Shown one piece after another: positions 9,782-64,000 of a stretch of DNA of 64,000 nucleotides. Under the pieces are notes generated by a model, which saw nothing but the letters and a program-made list of their open reading frames with translations, ran no database searches and had not been told where the DNA came from. The position numbers and the translations under genes were made by a program. Numbering within the stretch: position 1 is the first letter of the stretch; every line of letters starts with the position of its first letter. This DNA comes from Desulfomonilia bacterium. GTDB taxonomy: Bacteria; Desulfobacterota; Desulfomonilia; UBA1062. The stretch spans positions 117,143-181,142 of the forward strand of contig JBEKDT010000010.1 of NCBI GenBank assembly GCA_050014195.1. Reading direction: 5' to 3'.

Positions 9782-10314
9782 TTTTTTAACCTCTCAAGCC
9801 AGCCTTGCAGGGTCTTCATAATAAAGAGGTCCTGGGTATCGCTGGCTTCCTGTCGAACCAGATCATCAAGTCCGTTCATTTCTTTAACCTGGCCGTAGAT
9901 ATCGAGGGCCTGCTCGTAATGACCTTGCTGTGCATATACCTTAGCGAGCTCAAGAGATGGCTCATTTACAAGCACTTCATGAGCCTCAGGTTTTTCCAGC
10001 AAATCGCGTGCCTCATCATCTTCGGGATAGAATGTAAGGTATTTCTGGAGGCAGGCCTTTGCCTGGGCATCATCATCACGCTGATGGTAGATGAGTCCCA
10101 GATAATAAAAAGACTTCATCAAGCCCTGGGCTAGACCTGCAATCTTTTCCAAGACATCAAGGGCCTCGCCATACCTGCCGATCTTGTACAGGGATATTCC
10201 GAGCAGAAGACGGTCTTCAGGGTTTTTGCGAGATTTGGTTGCCCGGACAACGTCCAGGAACCTTCCCTCATCAAAGGCCTTCTTCACATTCTCTGACGAA
10301 ACGGCCATAAGCAC
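9778..10314 (-). CDS. Tetratricopeptide repeat protein
   Basis: TPR-like helices YYLGLIY and LAKVYAQQGHYEQALDIY; lies within the aro operon. Confidence 0.75.
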   Translation of the reverse strand: MLMAVSSENVKKAFDEGRFLDVVRATKSRKNPEDRLLLGISLYKIGRYGEALDVLEKIAGLAQGLMKSFYYLGLIYHQRDDDAQAKACLQKYLTFYPEDDEARDLLEKPEAHEVLVNEPSLELAKVYAQQGHYEQALDIYGQVKEMNGLDDLVRQEASDTQDLFIMKTLQGWLERLKK

Positions 10315-11830
10315 CTAATATTTGAGAACTAGTAAGCTTTTTAACGGTAGCATCACCAATGGCAGGAGTCAACACAAAGTAGAGGCCATCCTTGACACCC
10401 TTTTTATCCGTGACGAGTGCACTGCTGATCTCATCTAGTTGAGGATACGGAAAATCATGAAGGGTATATGCCCATTTATTTATGAGCCGGAAGATTCGTT
10501 CCATATCCTTAGCGTTGATGAGTCCAAGCTCGCGTGACAGCCAGGATGCAAAAAACATCCCGGCGGCCACTGCCCTGCCATGGCTTACTTCAAAGTTGCG
10601 GGCAAGCTCGATTGCATGGCCCAGGGTATGGCCGAAGTTCAGAATCCTCCGCAGACCACCCTCCCGTTCATCCTTGCTCACAACAAAGGCCTTATCACGT
10701 GCACACAAATTCACAATTTTCTCATAATCAAGCTCATTCGCATTTTCTAGCTCGTCGAAGAGGTCCTTATCCATGATAATGCCGTACTTAATGACCTCGG
10801 CCATGGCTTCTTTTATGTGGAGCGGTTCAAGTGTACTAAGGAAGTCAATGTCGCTGAGCACAAACACAGGCTGATGAAAAGTGCCGACGAGATTTTTACC
10901 ATGCTTGATATCAATGCCTGTCTTTCCGCCTATGCTTGAATCCACCTGGGCGAGCAGCGTAGTGGGTATCTGCACCACGGGGATGCCCCGCATGAAGATG
11001 CTGGAAGCAAAGGCGGCAAGGTCCCCGATAACACCTCCGCCAATGGCAAGACAGATCCATTGCCTGTTCGCCTGTGCAAAGAACATCTCGTCGAGGACTT
11101 TCATCAGAAAAGGGAATGACTTTGAAGACTCACCGGAAGGTATGGTTATCGTGTGGTGCTTTAATCCGGTAAGCGAAGAGCGAATAAGCCTGTTATAGAG
11201 TTTGAGCACTTGTTCATCAACAAGAACCAGGGCACCTTCCGGCATGATATGCCGGGAGATGTATTCCCGTATTTCTTTGAAAATACCCTTTCCGATATAG
11301 ACGGGATACGGTGTATTGGTAACCAGGACGGCAATAGGCTTCAGGATATCCTTTGTGAGGTCGAAGATCTCCTGGGCCACTTCCTGGGGGGCTTTGTCAT
11401 CAGTGTCTATGATAAAATCGGCATCTTCATAGGCCGGCGTTCTTTTGAGGAGGAGGCTGTGCGCCTTTTCGTTCCACAGGGGCCTGCCGGAGTCTTCCGG
11501 GACCCGCGTTGCAAGGCTTTCAAAAGAGGCGCGCAAATAGATGATGTGGCCGCAGGCCTTCATTATTGCCCTGTTGGCCGGATTTACGGGAAGACCCCCG
11601 CCGGTTGCCACAACGGTATGCTTTTCCTTTCCGGCAATCTCAATCAAGGCTTCTCTCTCCAGGTTCCTGAATGCAGCCTCTCCCACACAGGCAAAGATCT
11701 CATTTATGGAGCTGCATAACTTTGTGCTGATATATTCATCAAGATCGATGAATGGATGGTTAAGGAGTTCCGCAAGTCTCCTGCCTGCAGTAGTCTTCCC
11801 TGACCCCATAAAGCCCGTGAGAAAGATCAT
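10271..11830 (-). CDS. aroB: Shikimate kinase / 3-dehydroquinate synthase fusion (AroK-AroB)
   Basis: N-terminal GFMGSGKT and ATGGG; C-terminal GGGVIGD, PTTLLAQVDSSIGGKTG, LNFGHTLGHAIE. Confidence 0.93.
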   Translation of the reverse strand: MIFLTGFMGSGKTTAGRRLAELLNHPFIDLDEYISTKLCSSINEIFACVGEAAFRNLEREALIEIAGKEKHTVVATGGGLPVNPANRAIMKACGHIIYLRASFESLATRVPEDSGRPLWNEKAHSLLLKRTPAYEDADFIIDTDDKAPQEVAQEIFDLTKDILKPIAVLVTNTPYPVYIGKGIFKEIREYISRHIMPEGALVLVDEQVLKLYNRLIRSSLTGLKHHTITIPSGESSKSFPFLMKVLDEMFFAQANRQWICLAIGGGVIGDLAAFASSIFMRGIPVVQIPTTLLAQVDSSIGGKTGIDIKHGKNLVGTFHQPVFVLSDIDFLSTLEPLHIKEAMAEVIKYGIIMDKDLFDELENANELDYEKIVNLCARDKAFVVSKDEREGGLRRILNFGHTLGHAIELARNFEVSHGRAVAAGMFFASWLSRELGLINAKDMERIFRLINKWAYTLHDFPYPQLDEISSALVTDKKGVKDGLYFVLTPAIGDATVKKLTSSQILGAYGRFVRECEEGL

Positions 11831-60793: not shown

Positions 60794-61750
60794 ATGAAAG
60801 TGCTCTTCACCGGTGACCTTCACGGCAGGCGGGTCCTGTATGAAGGGATGATGGAGCTCGCGGTCAAAGAAGAGGTGCAGTGCATCATCCTCGGCGGCGA
60901 CATCCTCCCCACCCTGATCCCCAGCCCCATCGCCCTCATCAACGGCCGCGCCGGCTTCCAGGATGACCTCAAGGGCCAGCTCCGCTTCGTGGACGGCTAT
61001 CTTTCCACGGTCTTCGCCTCGTTCCTCGCATCGAACCCGGGCATGAAGACCCTCTACATCCCCGGCAACCACGACTGGATTCCCGTGCTGGAGCGTCTTG
61101 CAGCCGCCCTTCCCCAGGCCGTCAACATCCATGGGAAGACCGTGCATCTGGGTGGCCTCACCTTTTTCGGCTATGCCTGTGTTCCGGATTCGACGTTCTG
61201 GGTGAAGGATTATGCGCGCAGGGACCTGAAGCGTGACTCCTACGTGCCGAGCAAGTTCGCCATCGTGAGCGATACGGACAGGCTGCGGCCAAGCCCGGAC
61301 GGAGAATATGCCGTGAAGAACCCCAGCATCGAGGAAGATCTCATGACCGTCTCCTTCGACGACCCCGGCCACACCGTCTGCGTGTTCCACTGCCCCCCGT
61401 ATGAGAGCGGTCTCGACACCCTGCACACCGGAAAGCCCATCGGCTCGAAGGCCATAAGAGGTTTCCTCGAGAGGACCCGGCCCATGGTGAGCCTGCACGG
61501 GCACATCCACGAATCCCCCTACATGTCAGGGGTGTACCGGACCCACATCAACGGCTGCCTGGCAGTGAACCCAGGCCAGGGCCCCAACCTGTTTCATGCC
61601 GTGACCTTTGATACCGACGACCCGGAAGCGACCATGACCCACAACCTGTTCGGCAGGGCCATGCCGCACGAAGACATGCACAAGCTCATGCCCGAGCGCC
61701 GCATGCGCAAGATCAAGGCCTTTTTCATGGACACCGTGCTCAAGGGTTGA
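60794..61750 (+). CDS. Calcineurin-like metallophosphoesterase
   Basis: DLHG, GGD, PGNHD, HCPP, HGHIHE. Confidence 0.9.
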   Translation: MKVLFTGDLHGRRVLYEGMMELAVKEEVQCIILGGDILPTLIPSPIALINGRAGFQDDLKGQLRFVDGYLSTVFASFLASNPGMKTLYIPGNHDWIPVLERLAAALPQAVNIHGKTVHLGGLTFFGYACVPDSTFWVKDYARRDLKRDSYVPSKFAIVSDTDRLRPSPDGEYAVKNPSIEEDLMTVSFDDPGHTVCVFHCPPYESGLDTLHTGKPIGSKAIRGFLERTRPMVSLHGHIHESPYMSGVYRTHINGCLAVNPGQGPNLFHAVTFDTDDPEATMTHNLFGRAMPHEDMHKLMPERRMRKIKAFFMDTVLKG

Positions 61751-61847: not shown

Positions 61848-61904
61848 GCGTGCAGAGCTTTTACTTAACACACCGGATTTCCATACAAGATCATTGCTTA
61901 AGTT

Positions 61905-62018
61905 CCCCTCGCCCCCTTGCGGGAGTGATTCGGGACATCCATGTCCCTCACCCTACGGGCGAACGTAAAGTTCGTCAATTTCTGCTTTCCATGCAGAAAT
62001 TTGGGACAGGGTGAGGGG
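61905..62018. repeat. Palindromic repeat interrupted by a ~77-bp multi-hairpin element
   Basis: CCCCTCGCCCCCTTGCGGGAG | insert 61926-62002 | GGGACAGGGTGAGGGG. Confidence 0.65.
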
Positions 62019-62264
62019 TAGTAGTGTAATATTGAAGGGTGTGTGCAGCAAAACGAAACCCACCAAAAGAAATGACCCCGAAGTTCAACCCGCCGGAAAC
62101 CTGGATTCCTTCAGCACCTTGTGCTATAGTTCAAATAATTAAAAGCCCGTACAACTATGAAACGGTTCGCACCCGAAGCCTGCACGATGGATCATGCCAT
62201 GCCGAGGTCAGGACCTTCTCCCCATAAATCTATGCTCACCTGCCGGGACGGAGTTTGCGCGCTT

Positions 62265-62333
62265 TCAGCCCATGCGGTCGAGCGGGCTCTTCACCGCACC
62301 GGAGCCCCGCTGCATGACGTGGGTGTAGACCAT
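62265..62333 (-). pseudogene. intI: Integron integrase C-terminal remnant
   Basis: Translates MVYTHVMQRGSGAVKSPLDRMG*, matching the IntI end TxIYTHV..G..V.SPLD; points away from the adjacent attC array. Confidence 0.82.
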
Positions 62334-62335
62334 GG

Positions 62336-62405
62336 GATGGGAAATACTGTCCAGGAAAGACTACATCTAATTGATCGAGATGTGGCCGAGTACGTTCTGA
62401 AATAA
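62336..62405 (+). pseudogene. 3' fragment of a gene cassette ORF
   Basis: ...GNTVQERLHLIDRDVAEYVLK* ends 8 nt before attC1; AT-richer than the intI fragment it abuts. Confidence 0.5.
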
Positions 62406-62413
62406 GGGTATAT

Positions 62414-62470
62414 GCCCAACAATGGCATGCAGCGGACGGCTTTCATCCGCCGCTGATCTGCATGTTGGCC
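62414..62470 (+). mobile_element. Integron attC site 1
   Basis: GCCCAAC ... AT(G)CAGC GG(A)CGG ... CCGCC GCTGAT ... GTTGGCC; R and L boxes with extrahelical bases. Confidence 0.88.
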
Positions 62471-62496
62471 TCCATTCTCAGCTCCATCAAACTTCA

Positions 62497-62525
62497 TTGA
62501 CAAATAGTAGCCATATGGCTACATT
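62497..62525 (+). promoter_or_regulatory. TA cassette promoter with palindromic operator
   Basis: TTGACA-17 nt-TACATT; perfect palindrome GTAGCCATATGGCTAC at 62507-62522. Confidence 0.8.
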
Positions 62526-62531
62526 ATGTTT

Positions 62532-62822
62532 ATGAAAGAACTCCGCAAAACTGAAGCCTTTGCAAAATGGATTGATGAAATACAAGATATCCGTGCGCGT
62601 GCTCGTATCCTGGTTCGGATTGAGAGGCTATCGGCAGGAAATCCTGGAGATGTTAAGCCAGTTGGTGAAGGTGTTTCAGAGTTGCGTATTGATTATGGAC
62701 CCGGCTATCGAGTTTATTACAAAGAACAAGGACGGAAGCTGATAATTCTCTTAGCAGGTGGTGATAAGCATTCCCAGGCAAGGGATATAAAAACTGCCTT
62801 ACGTTTGGCAAGAAACTTATAG
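62532..62822 (+). CDS. RelE/ParE-superfamily (HigB-like) addiction module toxin
   Basis: GNPGDVKPVGEGVSELRIDYGPGYRVYY, LLAGGDK; alternative ATG at 62526. Confidence 0.92.
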   Translation: MKELRKTEAFAKWIDEIQDIRARARILVRIERLSAGNPGDVKPVGEGVSELRIDYGPGYRVYYKEQGRKLIILLAGGDKHSQARDIKTALRLARNL

Positions 62823-62831
62823 GAGTTCATC

Positions 62832-63125
62832 ATGGCTAAAACAACTACAACTAAATACGATGTCGCTGAACATCTTCGTACACCAGAAGAAATGGCTGCC
62901 TATCTTGAAGCTTGTCTTGAGGAGGCAAATGGCGATGCGGCCTTTATTGCTAAGGCTCTCGGTGATATTGCACGCGCCAAGGGCATGACACAAGTAGCGC
63001 GTGATGCTGGCTTGTCCCGTGAAAGCCTTTACAAAGCACTCTCTGGCGAGAGAAGCCCAGGGTTCGACACAATCCTTAAAGTTTTACAAGCACTCGGCTT
63101 GAAATTGCATGCTGAAGCAGCTTAA
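62832..63125 (+). CDS. HTH addiction module antitoxin
   Basis: ALGDIARAKGMTQVARDAGLSRESLYKALS; AGGAG RBS. Confidence 0.92.
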   Translation: MAKTTTTKYDVAEHLRTPEEMAAYLEACLEEANGDAAFIAKALGDIARAKGMTQVARDAGLSRESLYKALSGERSPGFDTILKVLQALGLKLHAEAA

Positions 63126-63140
63126 GCAAATTGTTAAATC

Positions 63141-63196
63141 GCCCAACCAGCAAATCCACCGGACGGCTTAAGCCGCCGGTGATCTGCATGTTAGCC
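63141..63196 (+). mobile_element. Integron attC site 2
   Basis: GCCCAAC ... ATC(C)ACC GG(A)CGGC TTAA GCCGCC GGTGAT ... GTTAGCC. Confidence 0.9.
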
Positions 63197-63229
63197 TTAA
63201 TATTTGGAGATGATCTGAGAGGAGGGATA

Positions 63230-63856
63230 ATGAGAAACCTTATAATTGGACTCATTTGTTGTATATTGGGTGGTTGTTCAGTAGCACCGCTAAACAAAAG
63301 CGTAGTCCGTCAAGAGCCATATAAGAATATCTCTGGTAAGTCGTTGACAATATCTGCAAACAGAATAGTTGATGCAATCGAATTGGAAAACACTATCGGC
63401 AGGTTTTACAATGGTTTTATATGTATGGACCAAGGGGCTCTTCACTGGAAAGGTACTGAAAATTTTATTCGTGAGAGTACTAATCATGTTAGAAAAAAGT
63501 TGGAGGAGTATGGTTATTTGGTCTTGGGCAAAGCATATTCCCCATTTAATGATGAATATAGCAACCAATCTGACTTATTATTAGGAGGCAAGCTTATTGA
63601 TGTTCAAGCAAACGCCTGCTATTCCACAAAAGGGGTTAAAGGAGAGGCTTATGTTAAGGTAGAGTGGGAGGTTTATGATAATAGAACAAAAAGAATTATC
63701 TTAACTTTGTCAACCGAAGGGTATGGCTCACTACAAGAATTTGATAAGTTTGGAGATACAGTGTTGTTCATTCAGGCATTCGACATGGCAATTGATAATT
63801 TGTTAGCAACAAAGTCATTTTATAATTTGCTGATAAAAGAAAATAAGAATGGCTAA
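63230..63856 (+). CDS. Cassette-borne hypothetical lipoprotein
   Basis: GGAGG RBS, MRNLIIGLICCILGGC lipobox, AT-rich, TAA lies in attC3 R'' (GGCTAAC). Confidence 0.8.
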   Translation: MRNLIIGLICCILGGCSVAPLNKSVVRQEPYKNISGKSLTISANRIVDAIELENTIGRFYNGFICMDQGALHWKGTENFIRESTNHVRKKLEEYGYLVLGKAYSPFNDEYSNQSDLLLGGKLIDVQANACYSTKGVKGEAYVKVEWEVYDNRTKRIILTLSTEGYGSLQEFDKFGDTVLFIQAFDMAIDNLLATKSFYNLLIKENKNG

Positions 63857-63876
63857 CCAAGGCATCCACCGGACGG
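63851..63876 (+). mobile_element. Left half of attC site 3, interrupted
   Basis: GGCTAAC-CAAGGC-ATCCACCGGACGG follows attC2, then similarity ends; R'' is the exact complement of GTTAGCC at the cassette start. Confidence 0.8.
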
Positions 63877-64000
63877 GGGACTTCCCCAGAAAAAGTGGAC
63901 ACTAAGACCTAACTAAGGAGGAGGTGTCCAAGTGGGAAAGATGAAGGGTCCGAGGAAGGCACATCGGTATTCAGACGAGTTTAAGGTGAAAGCGGTATGT
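63877..64000 (+). mobile_element. Left end of an IS3-family-like insertion sequence with start of OrfA
   Basis: IR-like GGACTTCCCCAGAAAAAGTGGACA, AAGGAGG RBS, ORF from 63932 VGKMKGPRKAHRYSDEFKVKAV; cut by window edge, exact end uncertain. Confidence 0.7.

What the first reader, a model, noticed from the sequence alone, without database searches (positions are those of the whole stretch)
62265..64000. Integron that has lost its integrase: 22-codon intI stump joined to an attC cassette array
Seen: the minus-strand peptide MVYTHVMQRGSGAVKSPLDRMG* abuts a cassette 3' fragment and three attC sites (62414, 63141, 63851) in the usual divergent arrangement. Known: YTHV...SPLD is the IntI C-terminus with the catalytic Tyr, and integrase-less arrays are called CALINs. 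Inferred: one deletion near 62335 (CC-ATGGG-ATGGG-AA, possible microhomology) removed most of intI, Pc, attI and the start of the first cassette. That would show how a CALIN forms from a sedentary integron in an anaerobe lineage. The ORF track misses it, showing only a chimeric 82-aa ORF.
Basis: partly seen in the sequence, partly recalled or inferred. Interest (0 to 1): 0.75.

Follow-up and report, generated by a model that had tools for sequence, protein, structure and literature searches.

The report
Integron fossil with 22-codon integrase stump
The last 22 codons of an integron integrase gene are joined directly to a gene-cassette array, likely because a deletion removed the rest of the gene and its docking site; this is a known kind of decayed integron, and two sister species carry differently broken integrase genes at the same site.

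Summary
Real, and a known kind. The 22-codon peptide (62265-62333, minus strand) hits only the integron-integrase model among 18,950 NCBIfam models. A sister genome carries about 300 intI codons at the same site, and homology stops exactly at 62335. Unbranched contigs span the junction in 7 of 8 runs laid. Two attC sites are intact. The third is a half-site cut by an IS3 element at the contig end. No intact intI is assembled in this genome. This is a CALIN formed by integrase loss, as already described for Xanthomonas.

Not shown: microhomology (donor cassette not found), a single deletion step, or that the tail is the first cassette.

Added here: a second sister keeps only about 10 and 7 codons at this site. 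In the genus, 13 of 20 platform ends marked by a conserved post-intI motif lack a full intI. Such stumps are below the published pseudogene screen's threshold, so loss-derived CALINs may be undercounted.

Side lead: 4 of 9 left ends of the IS3 element sit at attC apices. The scan noted integrase-less arrays earlier on other pieces of this genome.

The parts
60794..61750 (+). Metallophosphoesterase gene; chromosomal anchor of the site, convergent with intI
   Evidence: PF00149; orthologues in 20 of 41 genomes
62003..62264 (-). 3' flank of intI, with a conserved post-intI motif just after the stop codon (about 62237-62257)
   Evidence: 92% to G004 and 85% to G003 over 201 aligned bases; motif follows intI at unrelated loci
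62265..62335 (-). intI stump: last 22 codons plus stop, carrying the YTH motif (Tyr as the catalytic residue is recalled knowledge)
   Evidence: TIGR02249 295-315/315, E 4.1e-5; 63 of 69 nt identical to G004 intI
62335..62336 (.). Deletion junction
   Evidence: Alignment to G004 breaks here; spanned in 7 of 8 runs
62336..62413 (+). 78-bp tail, likely the 3' end of a cassette gene (stop at 62403-62405, 8 nt before attC1); donor unknown
   Evidence: GC 0.41 against 0.68 for the stump; no homologue found
62414..62470 (+). attC1, intact
   Evidence: 50.9 bits; fold z -3.6
62471..63140 (+). Toxin-antitoxin cassette (HI1419/HI1420 type; toxin 62526-62822, antitoxin 62832-63125) with its own promoter-like site 62497-62525 and a palindrome 62507-62522
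   Evidence: TIGR02683 and TIGR02684 above cut-off; promoter scan; 82-90% identical cassette in the G007 array
63141..63196 (+). attC2, intact
   Evidence: 61.8 bits; fold z -4.9
63197..63856 (+). Cassette with a 208-aa ORF (63230-63856) of no known family, possibly a lipoprotein
   Evidence: No Pfam or NCBIfam hit; its R'' is a 7 of 7 complement of the R' of attC2
63851..63876 (+). attC3, left half only
   Evidence: Left-half profile 27.6 bits, 0 of 20,000 random positions as high; no full-model hit
63877..64000 (+). Left end of an IS3-family element inserted at the apex of attC3; contig ends inside it
   Evidence: Full element in L064: HTH_Tnp_1 OrfA and rve OrfB; same end at four other places in G000

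Best explanation
This is a chromosomal integron whose integrase gene survives only as its last 22 codons, joined to an attC cassette array, and a deletion of about 1 kb or more likely removed the rest of intI, the cassette promoter, attI and an unknown amount of the array's head. Shown: the stump, the junction at 62335|62336, two intact attC sites, a third cut by IS3, and no intact intI in the assembly. Inferred: the break was an illegitimate (non-integrase, non-IS) recombination in this lineage after its split from the sisters, and it was kept because an active integrase is costly or dispensable. The array is now likely frozen: it has no attI to load cassettes and depends on an integrase in trans to excise any. 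Only the toxin-antitoxin cassette is predicted to be expressed, from its own promoter, and it may have stopped the deletion from running further. The stump itself is predicted to have no function.
For: Stump hits only TIGR02249. G004 has about 300 stop-free intI codons at the same site with a 92% identical 3' flank. G013 and G024 have full intI there. G003 has about 10- and 7-codon stumps with different junctions and 10 attC matches behind them. G000, G004, G003 and G013 form one clade on the anchor gene. No intI over cut-off in G000; the stump is the only IntI-specific segment in six frames. The junction has no attC-derived start and no IS end. It is spanned in 7 of 8 runs. The stump has one private amino-acid change and no stop or frameshift, so the loss is young. 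Integrase cost: PMC3510236 (abstract). TA cassettes as deletion barriers: PMC13108822 (passages).
Against: The donor cassette was not found, so the junction chemistry is unknown. G004's allele lacks its first ~25 codons at a contig edge, so no intact parent allele of this exact lineage was seen and an earlier shared deletion is possible. A 297-codon frame stays stop-free by chance in 9-13% of neutral simulations at half the G000-G004 dS, so independence of the losses is only modestly supported. The TA-barrier idea rests on two cases against a base rate of 16 TA in 65 cassettes (about 0.06 by chance). An intI could be unassembled in this 29-contig genome. Several runs may be the source of this DNA.
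Confidence: 0.85

Rival explanations
1. Stepwise erosion. intI was first inactivated by a 5' deletion in the ancestor of G000 and G004 (perhaps also G003), and later deletions shortened it further in each lineage. The present junction is then only the last of several.
For: All three closest genomes have a broken intI here: G004 lacks ~25 N-terminal codons, G000 keeps 22, G003 keeps ~10 and ~7. This is compatible with the best explanation in everything but the number and timing of steps.
Against: G004's 297 remaining codons have no stop or frameshift despite dS 0.18 to G000 (chance 0.09-0.13 from substitutions alone). Its 5' replacement is 76 bases at a contig edge of a 71%-complete genome and may be an assembly artefact.
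Confidence: 0.3
2. Microhomology-mediated deletion through a shared ATGG or CATGG between intI and the cassette gene.
For: ATGG lies on both sides of the junction (62332-62335 and 62337-62340).
Against: Such a deletion leaves one copy, not two. The parent reads CCATGG then T, the window CCATGG then G. The donor cassette was not found in six searches.
Confidence: 0.3
3. The cassettes were inserted by an integrase acting in trans at a secondary (attG) site beside an older intI remnant.
For: attG insertion is a proven route to small CALINs (10.1101/2022.09.11.507474, passages). G000 has many dispersed attC clusters.
Against: Integrase insertion gives a whole cassette beginning at an att crossover; here a gene tail abuts the stump. 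Orientation and site match the relatives' complete integrons.
Confidence: 0.04
4. Assembly chimera, or a chance XerC/D-like peptide.
For: The genome is a metagenome assembly; the peptide is short.
Against: Junction spanned in 7 of 8 runs and in 4 of 4 metagenome contigs. DNA identity to G004 is 89% over 333 bases. Own tyrosine recombinases score 14-26.
Confidence: 0.02

Closest known systems
CALIN (Cury et al. 2016, PMC4889954; passages read), origin (iii): loss of intI
   Same: Cluster of attC sites with no integrase; an intI remnant lies beside it, as for 15 of 279 CALINs in that paper.
   Different: The remnant covers 21 of 315 positions of TIGR02249. [quoted passage not shown] Here sister genomes show the earlier state at the same site.
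Xanthomonas ilvD integron with inactivated intI (Gillings et al., as summarised in 10.1101/2025.06.18.660453; passages read)
   Same: Fixed chromosomal site; intI inactivated by large deletions or absent in most strains; arrays frozen afterwards.
   Different: There the platform is ancestral to the genus at one locus. Here it occupies this site in one four-genome clade plus one distant genome, with different IntI clades at the site and intI at many other loci.
intI pseudogenes across bacteria (Nemergut et al. 2008, PMC2426708; passages read)
   Same: Nearly a third of intI genes are broken; decay is common and recent.
   Different: That survey required the intI patch, which a 22-codon stump lacks. 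In this genus 13 of 20 marked platform ends lack a full gene.
IS3-family elements in integron arrays (PMC11023631, section 8 read) and REP-targeting IS1397/ISKpn1 (PMC1525189, passages)
   Same: IS3 copies sit inside arrays and can recombine with each other; some IS3 members select palindromic targets.
   Different: This element sits at the attC hairpin apex in 4 of 9 left ends seen. In the V. cholerae case one copy is in a cassette's coding sequence and the other in the last cassette. attC-specific elements named in the listings are IS1111-attC and group IIC-attC introns.

Membership tests
CALIN | At least two attC sites close together | tested here: met
   Two full sites 670 bases apart, 50.9 and 61.8 bits, model built from relatives' sites
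CALIN | No integron integrase nearby | tested here: met
   0 matches over the TIGR02249 cut-off in G000; only the 22-codon stump
CALIN | Called by IntegronFinder's own attC model | not testable with these tools
   Program and model not available; Rfam gave no relevant family
attC site | AAC/GTT cores, inner boxes, bottom-strand hairpin | tested here: met
   Met for attC1 and attC2; attC3 is a left half only
attC site | R'' of a cassette complements the R' of the preceding attC | tested here: met
   7 of 7 for the third cassette, 6 of 7 for the TA cassette
Integron integrase (IntI) remnant | C-terminus closer to IntI than to other tyrosine recombinases | tested here: met
Integron integrase (IntI) remnant | IntI-specific insertion patch | not testable with these tools
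   That part is deleted; the sister allele scores 451 bits against a cut-off of 265
Complete integron | Full intI, attI and Pc | tested here: not met
   No homology to relatives' intI-upstream regions on C10; 78 bases separate stump and attC1
Sedentary chromosomal integron | Same chromosomal locus across relatives | tested here: inconclusive
   Platform at this site in 4 of 35 orthologous loci, 5 of which are too short to judge; intI at other loci in other relatives
Sedentary chromosomal integron | Large array (11 or more attC in PMC11023631) | tested here: inconclusive
   2.5 sites before the contig end; one other assembly continues into C7, which has 7 more, but the join is unverified
attG-derived CALIN/SALIN | Whole cassette inserted at a GWT site, beginning at an att crossover | tested here: not met
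   A gene tail abuts the stump
IS3 family (element at 63877) | OrfA HTH plus OrfB DDE domain, terminal inverted repeats, short target duplication | tested here: met
   PF01527 and PF00665 in L064; related ends and matching 3-bp flanks

The most novel reading that the evidence does not exclude
In this Desulfomonilia genus, integron platforms are planted at many chromosomal sites and lose their integrase again and again by deletions from the attI side. At this one site three sister species show a nested series (about 300, 22 and 10/7 codons left). The stumps are too short for standard pseudogene screens, so the published figure that 95% of CALINs lack an intI remnant undercounts integrase loss. 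A conserved non-coding element behind the intI stop codon serves as a tracer of lost integrases, and toxin-antitoxin cassettes set where the deletions stop. Separately, the IS3 element that cuts attC3 prefers attC hairpin apices and would be a further kind of attC-targeting mobile element.
Probability: 0.4. Interest if true: 0.55.

Novelty: new member of a known kind. Interest (0 to 1): 0.35.

Why it matters
How CALINs arise is open: loss of intI, rearrangement, or insertion at secondary sites. This locus is a clear case of the first route, with sister genomes showing earlier and later states. It shows that remnants can be far below the coverage threshold used to estimate how often that route is taken. 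It does not reveal a new mechanism. The re-screen it suggests (short intI C-termini and lineage-specific 3' flanks beside CALINs) is cheap and would test the 95% figure.

Tried and rejected
Donor of the 78-bp tail not found: DNA search of 52 family genomes matched only the attC part; exact pattern in metagenome contigs gave 4 loci, all 100% identical to this locus; protein search of 122 class genomes found only G000; 0 hits in 1.84 billion representatives; only the window's own ORF in the 5.8-billion set; no plasmid match; no Pfam or PHROGs family. Short queries make these blanks weak.

82-aa ORF as a new fusion gene: rejected. The same ATG frame is open in G004 (80 aa) and G003 (102 aa) as an antisense shadow, and it has no homologue.

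IS-mediated deletion at the junction: no IS end there in G000; G003's junctions do abut a repeat-like element.

Rfam: nothing relevant. No RNA holder listed.

Continuation of the array: L064 joins the IS to the end of C7, where the flank is mid-gene and the 3-bp duplication does not match. The only matching flank (C27) does not rebuild attC3. Unresolved.

G003:C4 was dropped from the platform-end count (motif at the contig start; its row repeats the previous row's table).

One paper id typed from recall was not held; Gillings 2005 is cited only through 10.1101/2025.06.18.660453. Supplements were not read; the tables of Cury et al. and of the Xanthomonas preprint may list comparable short remnants.

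Full report
Setting. The window is G000:C10:117143-181142 and ends at the contig end. Close relatives of the anchor gene are titled Desulfomonilia or Deltaproteobacteria. The 24 listed runs that hold the stretch are peat or wetland metagenomes, 15 of them possible sources of this DNA.

The stump. The minus strand at 62333..62265 reads MVYTHVMQRGSGAVKSPLDRMG* with a stop ten codons upstream. Among 18,950 NCBIfam models it hits only TIGR02249, positions 295-315 of 315, E 4.1e-5. PHROGs gives no integrase. It scores 61-110 against 14 of 15 relatives' IntI ends (38 for one divergent gene) and 14-26 against nine tyrosine recombinases of G000. G000 has no match over the TIGR02249 cut-off, whereas 11 of 41 genomes searched do. 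A profile of the relatives' IntI, run over all six frames of G000, finds this segment (E 1.7e-6) beside generic recombinases.

The array. I built a covariance model from 16 attC sites of relatives' intI-bearing arrays, none from G000. In the 64-kb window it finds two strong sites, 62414-62470 (50.9 bits) and 63141-63196 (61.8 bits); the best unrelated site has 10 bits. Both bottom strands fold well (z -3.6 and -4.9). Between them lies an HI1419/HI1420-type toxin-antitoxin pair above curated cut-offs, with TTGACA-17-TACATT and a palindrome over it (5 promoter-like sites against 2.3 expected, so the match alone is weak). An 82-90% identical cassette sits in G007's complete integron. The next cassette's R'' complements the preceding R' at 7 of 7 bases. 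The third site is a 26-base left half, followed at 63877 by an IS3-family element. G000 has 39 model matches at E 0.1 or better, from 150 of 923 candidates scored.

The junction. G004 (95% identical anchor protein) has intI convergent with the same metallophosphoesterase. It aligns to the window at 89% over 62003-62335 and then diverges. The parent continues CCATGG-T, the window CCATGG-G. Contigs with no differing letter span the junction in X9, X12, X17, X5, X6, X14 and X21; X24 (depth about 2.5) has a gap there. No loose end at the junction was listed, though hid 49 loose-end rows. Four of four metagenome contigs with the pattern are 100% identical to the locus. The 78 bases after the junction have GC 0.41 and a stop 8 nt before attC1, which fits a cassette gene tail. 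Six searches found no donor, so microhomology cannot be tested, and the tandem ATGGG is not the trace such a deletion leaves.

The sisters. On the anchor gene G000 and G004 are sisters (92/85), then G003 (98/98), then G013 (99/98). G013 has a full intI of another IntI clade here. G024, in another genus, has a full intI and six attC matches. G004 keeps 297 stop-free codons, but its first 76 contig bases are not intI (by eye a methyltransferase-like frame) and match nothing else in four genomes: a real 5' loss or an edge artefact. G003 keeps about 10 codons joined to a repeat-like element, a half attC and a HicBA cassette, then a second copy with about 7 codons; 10 attC matches follow. dS between G000 and G004 is 0.18. 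At 0.08-0.10 neutral substitutions per site, 297 codons stay stop-free in 13-9% of 2,000 simulations, which modestly favours losses after the split. The G000 stump differs from G004 at six codons, three silent; only one amino-acid change is private to G000.

How sedentary. Of 35 orthologous loci, 4 have the platform directly downstream (L110, L111, L112, L129); 5 have under 350 bases downstream and cannot be judged. Relatives' intI genes lie beside at least six other genes, judged from the downstream frames without a family scan, and share a non-coding element after the stop codon. Its core motif occurs 21 times in 9 of 15 genus genomes, 0 times for the reversed control. Of 20 assessable copies, 7 follow a full-length intI and 13 do not: four partial or broken genes (G004:C340, G003:C43, G008:C10, G011:C170; the first and last lie at contig starts), four stumps (G000:C10, G003:C27 twice, G002:C7; the last three by eye) and five with nothing. 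Kin and duplicates are not independent: G000:C5 and G004:C157 look orthologous.

Mechanism. Shown: stump, junction, array, absence of intI and attI. Inferred: an illegitimate deletion of about 1 kb or more, young, and apparently fixed in the sampled population. Active integrases can be costly and are quickly inactivated (PMC3510236, abstract). TA cassettes carry their own promoter and likely prevent large deletions (PMC13108822, passages). In both G000 and G003 the first whole cassette after the break is a TA pair. The base rate is 16 TA pairs in 65 attC-delimited cassettes of seven arrays (107 of 120 ORFs of 55-175 aa were scanned), so two of two has a chance of about 0.06: a hint only.

The IS. 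Its left end occurs five times in G000. Three follow an attC left half at 26-27 nt from R'' (profile scores 27.6, 15.2 and 13.3; at most 3 of 20,000 random positions as high) and two do not. Of four exact matches in relatives, one (G002:C12) follows an attC half at the same position and three do not. That is 4 of 9, two of the nine being one shared remnant. Some IS3 members select palindromes (PMC1525189, passages). My searches (listings only) showed no report of IS3 preferring attC, which is a weak blank.

Comparison with what is known. Cury et al. name loss of intI as a CALIN origin and found remnants beside 15 of 279, keeping only alignments over 50% of the profiles (PMC4889954, passages). 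Large deletions of intI at a fixed locus are described for Xanthomonas (10.1101/2025.06.18.660453, passages), and about a third of intI genes are pseudogenes (PMC2426708, passages). The attG route is the main alternative (10.1101/2022.09.11.507474, passages) and does not fit a gene-tail junction. Searches for very short remnants or for this lineage listed no paper on them. Earlier notes of this scan describe integrase-less arrays and orphan attI sites on other pieces of this genome; I checked them only in part.

Verdict. A real and well-documented CALIN formed by integrase loss: a new member of a known kind. Its value lies in the sister series at one site and in showing that remnants fall below the usual screen. 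Interest 0.35.

Noticed in passing
window 63877-64000; G000:C3:270080, C12:159, C22:127, C8:67264; G002:C12:12181: The IS3-family element sits at the apex of an attC hairpin in 4 of 9 left ends seen (3 of 5 in G000, 1 of 4 in relatives), 26-27 nt from R''. Possible partial attC targeting.
   Followed up: partly
window about 62160-62264; G000:C1:149313, C5:177310, C13:73941, C22:9031: A conserved non-coding element of about 100 bases follows the intI stop in IntI clades at unrelated loci. At C1 and C22 it abuts sequence like relatives' intI-upstream region with no intI between. Its function is unknown.
   Followed up: partly
L035:3020-5640 (G003:C27): The intI 3' flank, stump and a repeat-like element occur twice, enclosing a HicBA cassette and a 303-aa gene on the opposite strand: a tandem duplication or a second platform.
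   Followed up: partly
L064:1585-2860 and G000:C7 end: One other assembly joins this IS copy to C7, whose end carries 7 attC matches in the same orientation. The 3-bp flanks do not match, which fits recombination between two IS copies or a misjoin.
   Followed up: partly
L044:4300-7500 (G001:C142): A decayed cassette array (three weak attC matches, broken TA pair) runs towards the same metallophosphoesterase from the other direction, so the site may be a recurrent landing place.
   Followed up: no
L067:5774-12048 (G007:C12): Seven toxin-antitoxin pairs among ten attC matches in one array, including CcdAB, BrnT and ParDE types.
   Followed up: no
L035:7727-10504 (G003:C27): Cassettes with a ThsB TIR-like gene (Pfam hit at 10061-10501), a similar gene and a 479-aa ORF between them: a possible Thoeris-like defence system in the array.
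   Followed up: no
window 61904-62020: A palindromic repeat of about 80-120 bases with matches on at least 11 other G000 contigs lies between the anchor gene and the intI flank and is absent from G004 at this spot.
   Followed up: no
L011 (G008:C11:152671-153612): Full-length intI with Pro at two positions where relatives have Leu, near the C-terminal LLGH motif; it may be inactive although intact.
   Followed up: no
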